Assembly: GCA_964373695.1 (NCBI GenBank)
Contig: CAYJVT010000012.1
Coordinates: 1-22,842 of the forward strand
Length of the DNA: 22,842 nt
DNA from: an uncultured archaeon
Lineage (GTDB): Archaea; Aenigmatarchaeota; Aenigmatarchaeia; GW2011-AR5
Reading direction: 5' to 3'
The notes under the pieces are model-generated. The model was not told the DNA's origin and did no database searches. It was given only the letters and a program-made list of their open reading frames with translations. Below are positions 16,481 to 22,842 of the stretch, in pieces. Positions within the stretch are counted from its first letter, which is position 1. Every line of letters starts with the position of its first letter. Both the position numbers and the translations under genes were made by a program.

Positions 16481-16900
16481 CTTAACAGCATACAGATATG
16501 GATGGCGGCATGCAAAATATTTTGCATTCCGGTATTGGCGGGTTAAGTTTGGCGTCTTAAAATATGCAGCTAGTCTGCAGTATGTTCTACGGAAACTTAC
16601 TCCCATTCATGTTGATCCAAGATCAATCCTGAGGTAAGCGTTTGTCCTGGAGAAAGCGGCATCGCCGCCCCGTGACAGGACTCATCCAACCTCCAGGAAA
16701 ACAATGAAGATGTAATACTCATATTACATCAGATGAAAGCGCGAGTAGGTAAAACTCTATCAGTGGTAGGGACGAACAATTAATGTGCAAACCCAAAAAT
16801 TCCGGTTGATCCCGCCGGAGACTACTGTTATCAGGATTCGATTAAGCCATGCGAGGTGACTGCCGCAAGGCAGACCGCACTGCTCAGTAACACGTAGTTA

Positions 16901-17827: not shown

Positions 17828-18662
17828 TCGGGAAGAAGACTAAACTTTAAATGTGATAGAGTCTAAGAGGTAATATGAGGATTAGACAACTTGTCTTACT
17901 ATCAGCCTATTTGCTTACAGATGGGGGAATATCAGCAAGAAACGACAGAGATTGGACGATTTATTTCAGAAACAAAGATGAAGAAATAATAAAATCGTTT
18001 CAAGAACAATTGTTTGCTTGCTGTGGCAAGAATGGTTATATAACTAAAAGAAATGATGGAACAGATTTCGTAAGATTACATTCAAAAAAACTTGCGGAAG
18101 AAATGTTTCAACTTTCTCAATCTTATAGAACAAAGGCTTGCAACACATTTCCCGTATGTAGGCATCTGAACGGCAAAATGTCATCTTGTAAATTATTTGG
18201 TACTCTCATGATAGATGGCATTGAATACCCAAAAGCAAAAATACCTGATGATGTATTTGAATCGAAAAAACTTGCAAAAGAATTCCTTAAGATATATGCA
18301 AGCTGTGATGGTGGTATTTCGGTTGTGCCTGCTAAAAACAAAAAAAATTCTTTGTTTTTAGTCAGAAAGGTTTTGTTTTCAGTAAAGCATCCAATACTGA
18401 ATCAGCAGATTACGGATTTGCTAAAAAGCTTAGGATATTTGCCATCACAATACAAAGACCAAATAAGATTAGTTAAGAAGAAAGATATAGCTAAATTCAG
18501 CAAAGAAATAGGTTTTATAGAAGGCGCAAAAATTTCAAATGATTCGAAATTCCTTTCTAATCTTGAAAAAAATCTTATACTTAGTAAAGTTGTCGAATCT
18601 TATGATAATCCTAAAACCCTCTTAGACTTTTTACATAAAACAAGGTCTTCTTCCCGGCTCAT
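17828..18662 (+). mobile_element. 16S BHB intron, 835 nt (~E. coli 781), homing-endonuclease encoding
   Basis: Central helix GAGC/GCTC; 12-bp stem CGGGAAGAAGAC/GTCTTCTTCCCG. Confidence 0.92.
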
Positions 18663-18672
18663 TCGGGATTAG
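17875..18672 (+). CDS. Intron-encoded double-motif LAGLIDADG endonuclease
   Basis: LLSAYLLTDGG and FLKIYASCDGG; stop codon is in the downstream exon. Confidence 0.88.
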   Translation: MRIRQLVLLSAYLLTDGGISARNDRDWTIYFRNKDEEIIKSFQEQLFACCGKNGYITKRNDGTDFVRLHSKKLAEEMFQLSQSYRTKACNTFPVCRHLNGKMSSCKLFGTLMIDGIEYPKAKIPDDVFESKKLAKEFLKIYASCDGGISVVPAKNKKNSLFLVRKVLFSVKHPILNQQITDLLKSLGYLPSQYKDQIRLVKKKDIAKFSKEIGFIEGAKISNDSKFLSNLEKNLILSKVVESYDNPKTLLDFLHKTRSSSRLIRD

Positions 18673-18674
18673 AT

Positions 18675-18710
18675 ATATTCGGTATCTAATCAAATTACCG
18701 GGTACTAAAA
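18675..18710 (+). other. 16S BHB intron, 36 nt (~E. coli 793)
   Basis: Central helix TTAG/CTAA; 9-bp stem TATTCGGTA/TACCGGGTA; restores TTAGAT|ACCCCGG. Confidence 0.88.
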
Positions 18711-18811
18711 ACCCCGGTAGTCTACGCTGTAAACGATGCCCACTTGGTGTCGCCGAACCTTCGGGGTTCTGCGGTGCCGTAGCGAAGGTGTTAAGTGGGC
18801 CGCCTGGGGAG

Positions 18812-18877
18812 AAAAAGGTTGTAGTTTTAAATAAGTATACAAACAAGAATAGTTAAGGTCTGCAATCTTTTCCCAAA
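18812..18877 (+). other. 16S BHB intron, 66 nt (~E. coli 890)
   Basis: 12-bp stem AAAAGGTTGTAG/CTGCAATCTTTT; central helix GGGG/CCCA; restores GGGGAG|TACG. Confidence 0.85.
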
Positions 18878-18895
18878 TACGACCGCAAGGTTGAA

Positions 18896-19724
18896 CTATA
18901 GGTGGCTCATATGGATGAATCGGAATTGAAGGAACTCACACTAAGATTTCAAGAATCGATTAGGCAAAGCAATGCAGAAGAATTTATAAAACAAAACCCA
19001 AAATCTATTCTTGCACTGAGATTATCTTTGGGATTAAGCCAAAAAGATTTTATAAGAAAAGTAAAAAATAAAATTTCTCAGGTAGCTCTTATAAAACACG
19101 AGAAAGGAAGGAGCTCTAGAATAAATTCAGTATTGCTCAAAGAAGTTGTCAAACTAGTACCGAACTTCATTGACATAAATTTGGTGATTGAAAACCATAA
19201 AAAATTTGATTCGATGAAAAAAGGAATTCATATGACGACCGAAAGAGCAAGAAAATTAAACGAATTATGGCAGAAAAAAACCAAAAGGTCTCAACGACAA
19301 GATTGGGGAAAAAAAGGCGCACTCAAAACAAATTCAAGCCAGAGATTGACAGAACAGGAAAAAAAGGTCAAAGAAATTCTGGATAGGATGAATCTTGAAT
19401 ATAAAATACACCATCAAATAAAAACAAAAAGTGTCGATATGAACATAGATTTTGTTTTGTTCAATAAAAATAAGCCTATATGTTTTATAGAAGTAAGTGA
19501 GCGTAAGCATGATTTGCAGATTTTATGTCAGGCTTATGCTTACAGATGCAGGATTTTAAAGGAAAATTATCCCTGGTCTAGGGCAGGAATAGTAATTAAT
19601 GATGTGCCTTTTTCAGCGAAAAAAATAATAGAAAAGGAATTTGATTTTATGCTTAATACCAATTCAATTCATAATCTTAGTGAGTTCCTTCAATTCTGAA
19701 ACACATGAGTCAACTATGCAACAT
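18896..19724 (+). mobile_element. 16S BHB intron, 829 nt (~E. coli 908), encoding an HTH + PD-(D/E)xK-like protein
   Basis: Central helix GTTG/CAAC; intron stem TATAGGTGGCTCAT/ATGAGTCAACTATG (13 of 14 pairs). Confidence 0.88.
18911..19699 (+). CDS. XRE-type HTH + PD-(D/E)xK-like nuclease (putative non-LAGLIDADG homing endonuclease)
   Basis: LRLSLGLSQKDF..ISQVALIKHEKG HTH; TEQEKKVKEIL..NIDFVL..CFIEVSE nuclease-like motif; paralogous to 20527-21240. Confidence 0.72.
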   Translation: MDESELKELTLRFQESIRQSNAEEFIKQNPKSILALRLSLGLSQKDFIRKVKNKISQVALIKHEKGRSSRINSVLLKEVVKLVPNFIDINLVIENHKKFDSMKKGIHMTTERARKLNELWQKKTKRSQRQDWGKKGALKTNSSQRLTEQEKKVKEILDRMNLEYKIHHQIKTKSVDMNIDFVLFNKNKPICFIEVSERKHDLQILCQAYAYRCRILKENYPWSRAGIVINDVPFSAKKIIEKEFDFMLNTNSIHNLSEFLQF

Positions 19725-19768
19725 ACTTGAAAATCAACGGAATTGATTAGCTGGTTTTCAATCAGCTA
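19725..19768 (+). other. Second 44-nt BHB intron at the same ~908 site, in tandem with the 829-nt intron
   Basis: Central helix GTTG/CAGC forms after removal of the large intron; stem TTGAAAATC/GGTTTTCAA. Confidence 0.6.
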
Positions 19769-19779
19769 ACTTAAGAGAA

Positions 19780-20425
19780 AGAAGATAACCCGATAGCACA
19801 CTTAAATAGAGTTTTCGGCAATCAATTATACATGAAATTGCATATCTGCTCGGAGCATTGAGAGATTCGACTATAGATGCACGAAAAGGAAAAAACTATG
19901 AAATCAAAATAGCCCAGAAAGAGGCTAGATGGCTTTTCGTCATCCAAAGGATATTTCTCAAGCATTTTGGCGTAGAAGGCAAAATAACACAACATTCCGA
20001 AGGTGCCAGGATATTGAGAATTGGCGGAAAAGATATCGTGAATAAAATAATCGGAATCTCCCAAATGAAAATCCCTCAAGAAAATTGGAATACCCCCGAT
20101 GTAATAAAAAATCAGAGTAATTCGGTACAACTTGAGTACGTGAAAGGGTTTTTCGATGCTGAAGGCGGTCTTCCAAAAGATCCCGAAAATGCATCGCAAA
20201 AATACATATGCTTCGGTCAGAAAAACAAGGAATCTTTAGAATTTGTCAGAAACATCTTGATAAAAAACGGATTTAATCCGACAAACTTGACAAGATGTGG
20301 CGGAGTCTGGGAATTCCGAGTTACTAGGAAAGCAGAAATGGTAAAATTTGCTTCTAAGATAGGAAGCCTTCATGCAGACAAACAGCGAAAACTCAAAATT
20401 CTACAGCGGGTTTATTTTCCTCAAA
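19780..20425 (+). mobile_element. 16S BHB intron, 646 nt (~E. coli 919), LAGLIDADG encoding
   Basis: Stem GAAGATAACCCG/CGGGTTTATTTTC; central helix AGAG/CTCA; exon resumes at TTGGCGGGGGAGCAC; the 5' boundary is less certain. Confidence 0.7.
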
Positions 20426-20520
20426 TTGGCGGGGGAGCACTACCAGGGGTGGAAAGAATGCAAGTCGCCAAAGACTTATTTTCGAGCGAACAAATCTATA
20501 AATACTACAACCGACTATAA
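19810..20520 (+). CDS. Intron-encoded double-motif LAGLIDADG endonuclease; no in-frame ATG before motif 1; frame runs through the next exon
   Basis: IAYLLGALRDS and YVKGFFDAEG motifs; frame open from 19810. Confidence 0.75.
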   Translation, partial: SFRQSIIHEIAYLLGALRDSTIDARKGKNYEIKIAQKEARWLFVIQRIFLKHFGVEGKITQHSEGARILRIGGKDIVNKIIGISQMKIPQENWNTPDVIKNQSNSVQLEYVKGFFDAEGGLPKDPENASQKYICFGQKNKESLEFVRNILIKNGFNPTNLTRCGGVWEFRVTRKAEMVKFASKIGSLHADKQRKLKILQRVYFPQIGGGALPGVERMQVAKDLFSSEQIYKYYNRL

Positions 20521-21257
20521 GCGAATATGCCAAAAACAAAATTTAGCGACGATGAATTCCAGAAACTTTATAGAGAAGTCCAACATAAAACAAAAAATTT
20601 CTCTATAATAGAACCTGAATTAATATGGGAAAATCCCAATTACATGAAAGTTTTCAGAATGATATGCGGCAGAAGCCTTGCAGAAATGGGAAATATTTTG
20701 AACAAAACACATGCAACTATTGCCCAGTATGAGCGTGGTGCAATAAAAAACATACCCATAAAAGAAGCAGAAAAAATTTCTCATATAATAAGCGATGAAT
20801 TGCCGCAAAACAAATCACTAGAAAATGCAATAAGAAATATGCATAAATTCAGGGAACTTTCAAATGGGGGATATGTTCAGGCGTTCAAAAGAGCGGAAAA
20901 GGCAGAACTGACAAATCAAGAAAAAAAGATAAAGGAAATTCTCGAAAAGAAAAAAATAGATTTTGAGCCGCACAAAACACTGGATACATCAATAGGAAAA
21001 TTAAATTTTGATTTTTGGCTGCCTGATAACAAAATTATGATAGAATGCACTGAATCTGTATCCAAACATAAAGCAGAATCTCTAGGATTCCGTGCATTGA
21101 AGCTCAAAGATAAAATTAAATGTAAAGCAATAGCCGTTATACCATCCAATGTTTCGGATGGAATCATGAGAAGACTGTGCGATTATGATTACGTTGTTTT
21201 TTCAACGGATTTGTCAAAGCTCGAGAATATTGTCAAGTAGGGCTTCGTTCTCACCAA
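20454..21257 (+). mobile_element. 16S BHB intron, 804 nt (~E. coli 946), encoding an HTH + PD-(D/E)xK-like protein
   Basis: Central helix GGTG/CACC; stem AGAATG/CGTTCT; restores GGTGGA|GGCTGCGG. Confidence 0.9.
20527..21240 (+). CDS. XRE-type HTH + PD-(D/E)xK-like nuclease (putative non-LAGLIDADG homing endonuclease)
   Basis: FRMICGRSLAEMGNILNKTHATIAQYERG HTH; TNQEKKIKEIL..NFDFWL..IMIECTE. Confidence 0.75.
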   Translation: MPKTKFSDDEFQKLYREVQHKTKNFSIIEPELIWENPNYMKVFRMICGRSLAEMGNILNKTHATIAQYERGAIKNIPIKEAEKISHIISDELPQNKSLENAIRNMHKFRELSNGGYVQAFKRAEKAELTNQEKKIKEILEKKKIDFEPHKTLDTSIGKLNFDFWLPDNKIMIECTESVSKHKAESLGFRALKLKDKIKCKAIAVIPSNVSDGIMRRLCDYDYVVFSTDLSKLENIVK

Positions 21258-21301
21258 GGCTGCGGTTCAATTGGATTCAACGCCAGGAACCTTACCTGGG
21301 A

Positions 21302-21925
21302 AATTTAGAAGTTCGAAGTCAAGGAAGGTAAGGTTTAATATTCTGGAAGAACCATGTTCTACCATGCGAGCAAAAATAAACATCAAGAATCTATCAGAAA
21401 TAGAAAAAGGCTATTTGTGCGGATTCTACGTAGGAGATGGAAACATATTCATATATCCCAAACAATGGATATACAGAGTTCGTTTCCATACATTTGTAAA
21501 TGAAACACAAATACAACAAAAGCTTATTTTGATTCTTGGCAAAATTTGCAATAACACAAAAAGCTATAAAGCAAAAAACAACACTATTGTTATAGAAACG
21601 CATGCAAAAGACCTCATAAAATTTTTTGATGATATAGTAACAAAGAGCGGAATAAAAACGACAAATAAAACATCACGAAATTTTAATTTGGGTTTCATTG
21701 AGGGTATGGTAGACAGCGACGGATATGTCCAGAGAAATTATGCAGAAATAACAACAATGAATCCAAAACTAAAAAACAATCTGGTATCATTGTTGAAAAT
21801 GCTAAAAATTGAGCATAATTTAAGAACATTCAAATCGCATCTAAGTAAAAACACCGGTTATAGGATTGGTTTTTCACTGAATTGTAAACTTTTCTATCCC
21901 ATTAAATGGATTTCTAAATCCAGAC
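21302..21925 (+). mobile_element. 16S BHB intron, 624 nt (~E. coli 990), LAGLIDADG encoding
   Basis: Central helix CTGG/CCAG; 9-bp stem ATTTAGAAG/TTTCTAAAT; restores CTTACCTGGGA|AGACAGC. Confidence 0.92.
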
Positions 21926-21939
21926 AGACAGCAGAATGA
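21364..21939 (+). CDS. Intron-encoded double-motif LAGLIDADG endonuclease
   Basis: YLCGFYVGDG and FIEGMVDSDG motifs; stop codon is in the exon. Confidence 0.9.
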   Translation: MRAKINIKNLSEIEKGYLCGFYVGDGNIFIYPKQWIYRVRFHTFVNETQIQQKLILILGKICNNTKSYKAKNNTIVIETHAKDLIKFFDDIVTKSGIKTTNKTSRNFNLGFIEGMVDSDGYVQRNYAEITTMNPKLKNNLVSLLKMLKIEHNLRTFKSHLSKNTGYRIGFSLNCKLFYPIKWISKSRQTAE

Positions 21940-22140
21940 GGGTCACTCTGAAGGGGTTACCTGACAAGCTGAGAAGTGCTGCATGGCCGTCGTCAGTTCG
22001 TGCTGTGAAGTGTCCTGCTAAGCCAGGAAACGAACGAGACCTGCGCCTCTAGTTGCTAATCCTGTCTCCGGACAGGATGCACTCTAGCGGGACCGCTGCT
22101 GCTAAAGCAGAGGAAGGAGCAGGCTACGGCAGGTCAGTAT

Positions 22141-22769
22141 ACTTTGAAAGAAGAAGCACTTCTCCACTTTTCACTTTTCAGGTGCTCTTGGCAATATCAT
22201 ATAAGACATCAATATAGAATTTTGATATGAATCCATATTTGGCAGGTATTATCGTAGGAGATGGACATATAGAGAAAAACGGAAGAGTAGTTATTGCAAG
22301 CAGCAATAAAAACTTTATAGAAACTATAAACGACCTCATAAAATTTAAAACGTCTGTTTTCTATGACAAATCTGCAAATGTATGGAAAGTATCGTCCAAT
22401 TCAAAAGAATTCTTGGAAAAAATGGAAAATATTGATGTCAAGCGCGGAAACAAAACGACGGCAAATATGAATATAAAACTCAATAAAAATGAAATGCTCT
22501 TGTTTGTTTCCGGGTTATATGATGCCGAAGGGCACTTTGAAATCAATGAAAGATACTACAAAATTAGGATAAAAATGAAGAATGAATCAATAATGGAATT
22601 GGTGTATAATTTCCTTATTGACAACGGATACGAACCTAGAATTTGTAGAAAAGACGGGTGCATTGTTGTTGATATAAACAAACAGCAAAATGTGACAAAA
22701 TTCGTTTCGAATTTCATGTTAATGCATCCAAAGTGGAGAAGGCTTGAAAACCTTCTTTCAGGGGCTGAG
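22141..22769 (+). mobile_element. 16S BHB intron, 629 nt (~E. coli 1205), LAGLIDADG encoding
   Basis: Central helix CAGT/GCTG; 12-bp stem CTTTGAAAGAAG/CTTCTTTCAGGG; restores CAGTAT|GGCCTAAAT. Confidence 0.92.
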
Positions 22770-22838
22770 GGCCTAAATTTCCAGGGCTACACGCGGCCTA
22801 CAATGCGTAGGACAATGGGATGCAACACCGTAAGGTGA
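22227..22838 (+). CDS. Intron-encoded double-motif LAGLIDADG endonuclease; frame reads on into the exon
   Basis: YLAGIIVGDG and FVSGLYDAEG motifs. Confidence 0.9.
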   Translation: MNPYLAGIIVGDGHIEKNGRVVIASSNKNFIETINDLIKFKTSVFYDKSANVWKVSSNSKEFLEKMENIDVKRGNKTTANMNIKLNKNEMLLFVSGLYDAEGHFEINERYYKIRIKMKNESIMELVYNFLIDNGYEPRICRKDGCIVVDINKQQNVTKFVSNFMLMHPKWRRLENLLSGAEGLNFQGYTRPTMRRTMGCNTVR

Positions 22839-22842
22839 AGCC

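What the first reader, a model, noticed from the sequence alone, without database searches (positions are those of the whole stretch)
21302..21925. 624-nt intron whose circle would be a stop-less, endless ORF
Seen: the intron is 624 nt (208 codons). The LAGLIDADG frame is open over its whole length, and circularising C21925 to A21302-A21303 gives CAA followed in frame by TTT AGA AGT... The stop exists only in the exon (21937). Known: excised archaeal introns are ligated into circles. Inference: translation of the circle would give rolling-circle LAGLIDADG concatemers or need ribosome rescue, or the enzyme is made only from precursor or linear RNA.
Basis: partly seen in the sequence, partly recalled or inferred. 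Interest (0 to 1): 0.8.

Follow-up and report, generated by a model that had tools for sequence, protein, structure and literature searches.

The report
Stop-less homing-endonuclease intron in archaeal 16S
A mobile intron in the 16S rRNA gene of a tiny archaeon would form an RNA circle with no stop codon, but related introns mostly lack this property, so it looks like an accident, and the enzyme is most likely made from a separate linear message that starts inside the intron.

Summary
Window 21302-21925 is a 624-nt bulge-helix-bulge (BHB) intron at about E. coli position 990 of a heavily interrupted archaeal 16S gene. It encodes an I-DmoI-like, two-motif LAGLIDADG homing endonuclease. The stop codon (TGA, 21937) lies in the 3' exon. 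A circularised intron would have one frame with no stops, and its junction peptide would read SKSRQFRSSK.

The endless frame is not a conserved feature. Twelve homologous introns at the same site measure 610-645 nt and fall in all three length classes modulo 3. Only two give an endless circle: the window and one relative. Chance alone predicts about 5% per stop-less intron.

Three things are conserved: the BHB core, a protein under purifying selection, and a BRE/TATA-like box exactly 30-23 nt upstream of the ATG. This genome places its promoters at that distance from start codons, the signature of leaderless mRNAs. No start codon on the circle has a Shine-Dalgarno site.

My best reading is an ordinary mobile intron whose enzyme is translated from a linear, leaderless transcript. 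That transcript would start at an internal promoter and terminate at the exon TGA. No RNA data could test this.

Earlier notes from this scan reached the same conclusion for 23S rRNA introns in other genomes.

The parts
21257..21301 (+). 16S rRNA exon fragment upstream of the intron, ending at about E. coli position 990
   Evidence: blastn against an intron-less relative; motif spacing
21296..21299 (+). 5' strand (CTGG) of the 4-bp central BHB helix
   Evidence: Pairs with 21920-21923. All four columns are paired in 13 of 13 homologues, with 2-3 pair types each
21300..21302 (+). 5' three-nt bulge (GAA); cut predicted after 21301
   Evidence: BHB scan; the cut position follows the established rule of cleavage after the second bulge nucleotide (my own knowledge)
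21302..21925 (+). BHB intron, 624 nt
   Evidence: RNA-contig joint 21301->21926
21303..21315 (+). 5' strand of the intron stem h' (13 bp)
   Evidence: Pairs with 21907-21919; the first 6 pairs are kept in 13 of 13 homologues with compensatory changes
21326..21341 (+). Conserved AGGTAAGG + TTTAATAT block, read as a BRE/TATA-like promoter element. The TATA part, 21334-21341, lies at -30..-23 from the ATG
   Evidence: The genome-wide upstream profile has T at -30..-27 and A at -26..-22. The PWM score of 6.7 is at the 98.6th percentile of the AT-rich intron background. The motif and its 28-31 nt spacing are kept in 6 homologues. It is also part of the intron RNA stem, so its role is inferred
21364..21939 (+). 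LAGLIDADG homing-endonuclease ORF, 191 aa plus stop. The last 14 nt, including the stop, are exon
   Evidence: Pfam LAGLIDADG_3 at 3e-11 and Hom_end at 1e-6; dN/dS of 0.09-0.19; AlphaFold pLDDT 86 and best PDB match I-DmoI
21421..21444 (+). First LAGLIDADG motif (GFYVGDGN)
   Evidence: Invariant columns G20, V23, D25, G26 and N27
21691..21723 (+). Second LAGLIDADG motif (GFIEGMVDSDG)
   Evidence: Invariant columns G110, E113, G114, D117, D119 and G120
21907..21919 (+). 3' strand of the intron stem h'; also encodes the disordered C-terminal tail
   Evidence: tail residues 184-191 have low pLDDT
21920..21923 (+). 3' strand (CCAG) of the central BHB helix
21924..21926 (+). 3' three-nt bulge (ACA); cut predicted after 21925
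21937..21939 (+). TGA stop of the endonuclease ORF, inside the conserved rRNA sequence GAATGA
   Evidence: the same exon stop, giving the tail QTAE*/QTAG*, is used by 7 of 12 homologous introns
21926..22140 (+). Downstream 16S exon
   Evidence: Rfam SSU_rRNA_archaea model positions 936-1162, 200 bits

Best explanation
This is an ordinary mobile archaeal rRNA intron at 16S position ~990, of the relaxed BHB type HBh'. It carries a functional, monomeric, I-DmoI-like LAGLIDADG homing endonuclease gene. The gene fills the intron up to the 3' splice site and borrows its stop codon from the conserved exon sequence GAATGA. The intron length is a multiple of three, and the 62-nt leader has no in-frame stop. 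Both look like accidents, not a device. The enzyme is most likely translated from a separate linear, leaderless mRNA. That mRNA would start at the ATG (21364), driven by a BRE/TATA-like box inside the intron at 21326-21341. It would lack the 5' half of the BHB, so it could not be spliced or circularised, and it would read into the exon and terminate at TGA 21937. The spliced-out circle, if made, has no 5' end and no Shine-Dalgarno site, so it should seldom or never be translated. Shown here: intron borders, BHB covariation, open frame, non-conservation of endlessness, selection on the protein, and position and conservation of the TATA-like box. Inferred: promoter activity, the transcription start site, and which RNA is translated.
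For: Borders and length. BHB: ten consecutive pair columns are paired in 13 of 13 homologues, with 2-5 pair types each. Endlessness is not conserved: among 12 homologous HEG introns at this site (610-645 nt; 6 have lengths divisible by three, 2 leave remainder 1 and 4 leave remainder 2), only the window and L052 are endless. The closest relative, L049 (66% identity, 618 nt), stops 6 codons past the junction. Leader lengths are 54, 59 and 62 nt, with frame-breaking indels. The chance expectation is ~0.05. The protein is functional: dN/dS 0.09-0.19, both motifs invariant, confident I-DmoI-like fold with a disordered tail over the BHB. Leaderless habit of the genome: T-rich at -30..-27 and A-rich at -26..-22 upstream of 693 crude gene starts. 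The intron has TTTAATAT at exactly -30..-23 (98.6th percentile of intron background). ORFs starting at 17875, 20527 and 22227 in three unrelated introns have the same feature (99.1, 98.2 and 94.6 percentiles). In 6 homologues the best promoter-like site in the leader predicts a start within 2 nt of the ATG, although the spacer sequence has diverged. There is no SD: the duplex energy upstream of ATG 21364 is -0.9 kcal/mol, and the best in-frame start on the circle reaches -5.3. The exon stop is shared by 7 of 12 homologues.
Against: No RNA data exist for this organism's intron: the four RNA runs cover only exons. So the promoter, the start site and the circle are all untested. The conserved GGTAAGG-TTTA block also pairs with the 3' coding strand in the intron's rod-like stem, so RNA structure alone could explain its conservation. 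The introns are AT-rich, so TATA-like words are common there. In the five Pacearchaeota-type homologues the same box lies 51-60 nt before the annotated ATG, so they would not be leaderless. An internal promoter inside a heavily transcribed rRNA operon could suffer interference. Reviews state that archaeal intron circles are translated into I-DmoI (PMC11724312, PMC6538810).
Confidence: 0.6

Rival explanations
1. The endonuclease is translated from the unspliced pre-rRNA before the intron is removed. Initiation is internal at ATG 21364 and termination is at the exon TGA. There is no separate promoter.
For: The stop lies in the exon here and in 7 of 12 homologues. The pre-rRNA is surely abundant. 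The TATA-like block could be conserved for RNA structure alone.
Against: There is no Shine-Dalgarno site before the ATG (-0.9 kcal/mol). The ATG is internal, whereas this genome mostly uses 5'-terminal starts. The exact -30..-23 placement of the box at four separate intron ORFs would then be coincidence.
Confidence: 0.17
2. The excised intron circle is the mRNA. Ribosomes go round it without stopping and make LAGLIDADG concatemers, or stall and need rescue.
For: The circle has a 208-codon frame without stops. EndA and RtcB genes are present. Reviews cite the I-DmoI intron circle as translated (PMC11724312, PMC6538810). Each unit is a self-contained two-motif enzyme with a disordered tail that could act as a linker.
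Against: Only 2 of 12 homologous introns are endless, and the nearest relative is not. Leader indels break the frame and the leader peptides are not conserved. No start on the circle has an SD, and a circle has no 5' end for leaderless initiation. The property is expected by chance at ~5%.
Confidence: 0.06
3. The gene is a decaying remnant that is no longer expressed, so the missing stop is irrelevant.
For: A same-genus relative has already lost the ORF, leaving a 111-nt mini-intron at the same site. One homologue (P0006/L053) has a diverged, apparently frameshifted C-terminus.
Against: dN/dS is 0.09-0.19 against four homologues, the frame is intact, both catalytic motifs are invariant and the fold is confident.
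Confidence: 0.05

Closest known systems
I-DmoI and its BHB intron in the 23S rRNA gene of Desulfurococcus mobilis
   Same: An archaeal rRNA intron of ~620 nt with BHB ends, encoding a ~190-aa monomeric two-motif LAGLIDADG enzyme. I-DmoI chains are the best structural matches (TM 0.68-0.75, E ~2e-8).
   Different: Sequence identity is only 16-19% and there is no sequence-level PDB hit. The host gene is 16S at ~990, not 23S. Here the stop lies in the exon and the circle has no stop. As I recall, the I-DmoI ORF ends inside its intron; I did not check this here.
16S rRNA introns of Thermoproteales (loci 374, 548, 722, 781, 901, 908, 919, 1093, 1205, 1213, 1391; Jay & Inskeep 2015, PMC4496867)
   Same: BHB introns in 16S genes, many with LAGLIDADG genes, alongside ORF-less remnants and mini-introns.
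   Different: Locus ~990 is not in that list. The host is a ~1-Mb DPANN-like genome, and relatives include a Pacearchaeota record. The gene is far more fragmented.
Infinite-ORF circular RNAs and rolling-circle translation (engineered circles in E. coli and human cells; circEGFR; review PMC11724312)
   Same: The circle length is a multiple of three and one frame has no stops.
   Different: No ribosome entry signal was found on the circle, the property is not conserved, and there is no evidence of translation.
Homing-endonuclease genes of group I introns that overlap the downstream exon
   Same: The ORF runs across the 3' splice site and ends in conserved host sequence (my own knowledge).
   Different: The splicing chemistry differs: protein endonuclease plus RtcB, not a ribozyme. 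The excised intron is expected to become a circle.

Membership tests
Archaeal BHB (bulge-helix-bulge) rRNA intron | Two 3-nt bulges separated by a 4-bp helix at the exon-intron junctions | tested here: met
   CTGG/CCAG helix with GAA and ACA bulges. It is of HBh' type, with the outer exon helix only 1 bp. All pairs are kept with compensatory changes in 13 of 13 homologues.
Archaeal BHB (bulge-helix-bulge) rRNA intron | Precise insertion relative to intron-less alleles | tested here: met
   Exon motif spacing is 711 nt against 87 nt in more than 12 relatives, and the mature junction GGGA|AGACAG matches theirs.
Archaeal BHB (bulge-helix-bulge) rRNA intron | Host encodes the splicing endonuclease and RtcB ligase | tested here: met
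   PF01974 at 3e-28 on contig C2; PF01139 at 3e-146 on C31.
Archaeal BHB (bulge-helix-bulge) rRNA intron | Excision from the rRNA and circularisation of the intron in vivo | not testable with these tools
   RNA runs hold only exon words. The joint 21301->21926 is present but may come from relatives, and the intron has no cover.
Double-motif (monomeric) LAGLIDADG homing endonuclease | Two LAGLIDADG motifs with conserved acidic residues | tested here: met
   The motifs GFYVGDGN and GFIEGMVDSDG are present, with D25, D117 and D119 invariant.
Double-motif (monomeric) LAGLIDADG homing endonuclease | Tandem alpha-beta-beta-alpha-beta-beta-alpha fold | tested here: met
   pLDDT 86 and pTM 0.86; top PDB matches are I-DmoI, PI-SceI and I-Tsp061I.
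Double-motif (monomeric) LAGLIDADG homing endonuclease | Cleaves the intron-less target site | not testable with these tools
   This needs the recombinant protein and a substrate carrying the intron-less junction.
Infinite-ORF circular mRNA (rolling-circle translation) | Circle length divisible by three with a frame free of stops | tested here: met
   624 nt with 0 stops per lap in one frame.
Infinite-ORF circular mRNA (rolling-circle translation) | A start codon that ribosomes can reach on a circle (SD or equivalent) | tested here: not met
   SD duplex energy is -0.9 kcal/mol at the ATG, and the best in-frame start reaches -5.3. Among genes in this genome the strongest tenth reach -8.5 or below.
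Infinite-ORF circular mRNA (rolling-circle translation) | Property maintained among homologues | tested here: not met
   Only 2 of 12 are endless.
Leaderless archaeal mRNA from a BRE/TATA promoter | TATA box about 26 nt upstream of the start codon | tested here: met
   TTTAATAT lies at -30..-23, matching the genome-wide profile.
Leaderless archaeal mRNA from a BRE/TATA promoter | Primary transcript 5' end at or within a few nt of the ATG | not testable with these tools
   No transcriptome of this organism was found.

The most novel reading that the evidence does not exclude
The intron circle is translated after all, giving a natural archaeal case of rolling-circle translation. The product would be a beads-on-a-string polymer of active LAGLIDADG units joined by the basic ~25-residue linker encoded across the junction and leader.
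Probability: 0.05. Interest if true: 0.8.

Novelty: new member of a known kind. Interest (0 to 1): 0.3.

Why it matters
Reviews of circular-RNA translation often cite archaeal intron circles as the first translated circRNAs. An intron whose circle has no stop codon would be the sharpest natural test of that claim, because translation of the circle would leave an unmistakable product: multimers and a junction peptide. The comparative evidence here points the other way. The endless frame comes and goes among relatives. What is kept is a promoter-like box placed for a leaderless message that ends on an exon stop. If that holds, these endonucleases are expressed independently of splicing, and the circle is a by-product. 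The intron is therefore useful as a test case, but it is probably not a new mechanism.

Tried and rejected
**An alternative BHB register was rejected.** A register with cuts at 21302|21303 and 21924|21925 would give 622 nt. It scores lower (a G-U pair in the core) and contradicts the 624-nt difference from intron-less relatives.

**RNA evidence was not informative.**
- Once laid, they cover exons only.
- They say nothing about the intron RNA, its circle or a start site.

**Searches that gave little or nothing.**
- A PDB sequence search with the protein gave no hit.
- The genome-contig scan gave only one true relative, and the other two hits were distant bacterial LAGLIDADG genes.
- Literature searches for BHB, homing endonuclease and circular gave nothing. 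Searches for DPANN rRNA introns gave only CPR-focused papers.
- Dalgaard et al. 1993 (PMC46730) is not held, so I could not check how I-DmoI expression was shown.
- Nomura et al. 2008 (PMC2602781) says nothing about a promoter or an exon stop.

**The conserved GGTAAGG block as a Shine-Dalgarno site.** I rejected this for the window clade, because the ATG lies 30 nt downstream. It stays possible for Pacearchaeota-type relatives, where an in-frame ATG follows 7 nt later in L036/L056.

**Loci left out.** L040, L043-45, L053 and L057 were left out of the length tally, because no clean BHB could be placed or another insertion lies alongside.

Full report
**Context.** The window is a whole 22.8-kb contig of a 1.02-Mb, 60-contig archaeal genome. 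Its relatives include a record titled Candidatus Pacearchaeota. An archaeal 16S rRNA gene starts at 16799 and runs off the end of the window. Comparison with an intron-less relative splits it into many exon pieces: up to 17833, 18697-18811, 18878-18895, about 19777-19787, about 20425-20453, 21257-21301, 21926-22140, and 22770 onward. The finding concerns the intron between 21301 and 21926.

**Checking the observation.** Two exon motifs that flank the site are 87 nt apart in more than twelve intron-less relatives and 711 nt apart in the window, so the insertion is exactly 624 nt. The mature junction GGGA|AGACAG matches the relatives.

- a central helix of CTGG (21296-99) paired with CCAG (21920-23);
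- three-nt bulges GAA and ACA;
- a 13-bp intron stem, 21303-15 paired with 21907-19;
- an outer exon helix of only 1 bp, making this a relaxed HBh' motif.

A rival register giving 622 nt scores lower and contradicts the 624-nt spacing. Metatranscriptome contigs from three runs join 21301 to 21926, which fits these borders, although they may derive from related organisms.

One frame of the circle has no stop, while the other two have 17-20 per lap. The ORF's stop is TGA at 21937-39, in the exon. The junction would read ...ISKSRQ|FRSSKSRK....

**What it is.** The ORF from ATG 21364 encodes 191 residues with two LAGLIDADG motifs (Pfam). Ten homologues at 38-66% identity share invariant acidic and glycine residues in both motifs. 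Pairwise dN/dS is 0.09-0.19, although dS is saturated.

The AlphaFold model is confident (pLDDT 86, pTM 0.86) and shows the tandem alpha-beta-beta-alpha-beta-beta-alpha fold. Only the last 8 or so residues are disordered, and they are encoded by the 3' strand of the BHB stem and the exon. The best PDB matches are I-DmoI chains (TM 0.68-0.75), followed by intein endonucleases and I-Tsp061I.

The genome encodes a splicing endonuclease and RtcB. A same-genus relative carries a 111-nt ORF-less mini-intron at the same site with the same ends. It folds as a rod with the BHB at its base. This is the usual gain-and-loss cycle of a homing element.

**Is the endless frame a feature or an accident?** I collected homologous introns from metagenome and genome contigs and placed the BHB in each. 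The four central pairs and the first six stem pairs are formed in 13 of 13 sequences, with 2-5 pair types per column. The borders are therefore well supported by covariation.

- **Lengths.** They are 624, 618, 618, 613, 632, 641, 641, 633, 633, 645, 614 and 610 nt. Six are divisible by three, two leave remainder 1 and four leave remainder 2.
- **Endless circles.** Only the window and L052 give one. L049, the closest protein relative, is 618 nt but meets a stop six codons after the junction. The others stop 5-21 codons after the junction or at the last intron codon.
- **Leaders.** Leader lengths differ by amounts that are not multiples of three (54, 59, 62 nt). The window and L052 leaders differ by frame-breaking indels, and their in-frame leader peptides are unrelated beyond the first four residues.
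- **Chance.** From base composition, an open 21-codon leader combined with a length divisible by three is expected in about 5% of introns that lack their own stop.

Two in twelve is not distinguishable from this figure. The endless frame is neither selected for nor visibly selected against.

**What is conserved instead.** Seven of twelve homologues end on the same exon stop, giving the tail QTAE* or QTAG*. The most conserved block of the leader is GGTAAGG followed by a TTTAWATW word.

To interpret it I profiled the bases upstream of 693 crude gene starts in this genome. There is a clear T-rich run at -30..-27, an A-rich run at -26..-22, and A-richness at -34..-32. This is a BRE/TATA box at the distance expected when transcription starts at the start codon, so many genes here are leaderless. 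The SD-like signal near -10 is only weak.

In the intron, TTTAATAT occupies exactly -30..-23 relative to ATG 21364. A matrix built from the genome's own genes scores it at the 98.6th percentile of all positions in the AT-rich intron region. The ATG starts of three unrelated intron ORFs in the same gene (17875, 20527, 22227) score at the 99.1, 98.2 and 94.6 percentiles at the same offset. In six homologues with short leaders, the best site in the leader predicts a start within 2 nt of the ATG, although the 20-nt spacer has diverged.

By contrast, no in-frame start codon on the circle has a usable Shine-Dalgarno site. The duplex energy is -0.9 kcal/mol at the ATG and at best -5.3 elsewhere, while the best-paired tenth of genes in this genome reach -8.5 kcal/mol or lower.

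**Most likely mechanism.** RNA polymerase initiates at the internal promoter and makes a leaderless mRNA beginning at AUG 21364. This RNA lacks the 5' strands of the BHB (21296-21315). The splicing endonuclease therefore cannot cut it and RtcB cannot circularise it. Ribosomes read through the 3' splice site and stop at the exon UGA, giving a 191-residue enzyme with a short disordered tail.

The pre-rRNA is spliced separately. Its intron circle is a by-product that has neither a 5' end nor an SD and should seldom be translated. The promoter activity, the start site and the fate of the circle are inferences. No RNA data for this organism were available.

The main caveat is that the conserved block also pairs with the 3' coding strand in the intron rod. 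Its conservation could therefore be structural. Also, five Pacearchaeota-type homologues have the box 51-60 nt before their ATG.

**Comparison with what is known.** The element meets the tested criteria for an archaeal BHB rRNA intron and for a two-motif LAGLIDADG homing endonuclease. I-DmoI and its intron are the closest described system. Position ~990 is not among the 16S intron loci listed for Thermoproteales (PMC4496867).

Reviews state that the I-DmoI intron circle is translated (PMC11724312; PMC6538810). I could not read the primary paper. The element meets the formal definition of an infinite-ORF circle but fails the tests of ribosome access and conservation.

After forming this reading (note), I found that the scan had earlier reached the same conclusion for 23S introns in other genomes (e1-5473475, e1-3164250). 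It had also noted another endless 16S intron (e1-4585658).

**Verdict.** The element is an ordinary kind of thing, a new member of the archaeal homing-intron family. The endless circle is most likely incidental. It remains a convenient natural test of whether archaeal intron circles are ever translated.

Noticed in passing
window 17834-22842; ATGs at 17875, 20527, 21364, 22227: All four ATG-initiated intron ORFs in this 16S gene have a TATA-like word at -30..-23, the position of the genome-wide promoter signal. This suggests intron genes here are generally expressed as leaderless messages from internal promoters.
   Followed up: partly
L018:4577-4687 (same-genus genome G001): A 111-nt ORF-less mini-intron sits at the same 16S site with nearly identical ends. 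It is a recent deletion of the endonuclease gene and folds as a rod with the BHB at its base (-36 kcal/mol, z = -3.1).
   Followed up: partly
window 19858-20520 and 22227-22838: Two other LAGLIDADG ORFs also lack a stop inside their introns. One reads through the micro-exon at ~20425-20453 into the next intron. The other reads 66 nt into the exon at 22770. Their introns are ~637 and 629 nt, not multiples of three.
   Followed up: partly
G000 contig C31:6291-9113 (L059, L060): The RtcB ligase gene is one 989-aa open frame. The Pfam match is split into positions 1-51 and 48-426, about 1.45 kb apart. This is probably an intein inside the enzyme that ligates the introns.
   Followed up: no
whole genome G000: The base profile upstream of 693 crude gene starts shows a TATA box at -30..-22 and only a weak SD-like signal, so translation is predominantly leaderless. 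Genome GC is 48.6%, while the rRNA introns are ~30-35% GC.
   Followed up: partly
L013, L015/L025, L028, L042, L043-45: Related genomes carry a different insertion about 10 nt upstream of this site, after ...AACGCCAGGAAA. Added lengths between the flanking exon motifs are 592, 599 and 133 nt in L013, L015/L025 and L028. In L042 and L043 it lies next to the ~990 intron.
   Followed up: no
window 18812-18877, 20454-21256, 22141-22769: RNA-contig joints skipping 66, 804 and 629 nt corroborate the borders of three other introns in the gene.
   Followed up: no
L036/L056, L055, L032, L037, L038: Pacearchaeota-type homologues have longer leaders of 80-89 nt. In L036/L056 an in-frame ATG lies 7 nt after GGTAAGG, giving the 202-aa form P0009. 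There the same block could act as a Shine-Dalgarno site instead of a promoter.
   Followed up: partly
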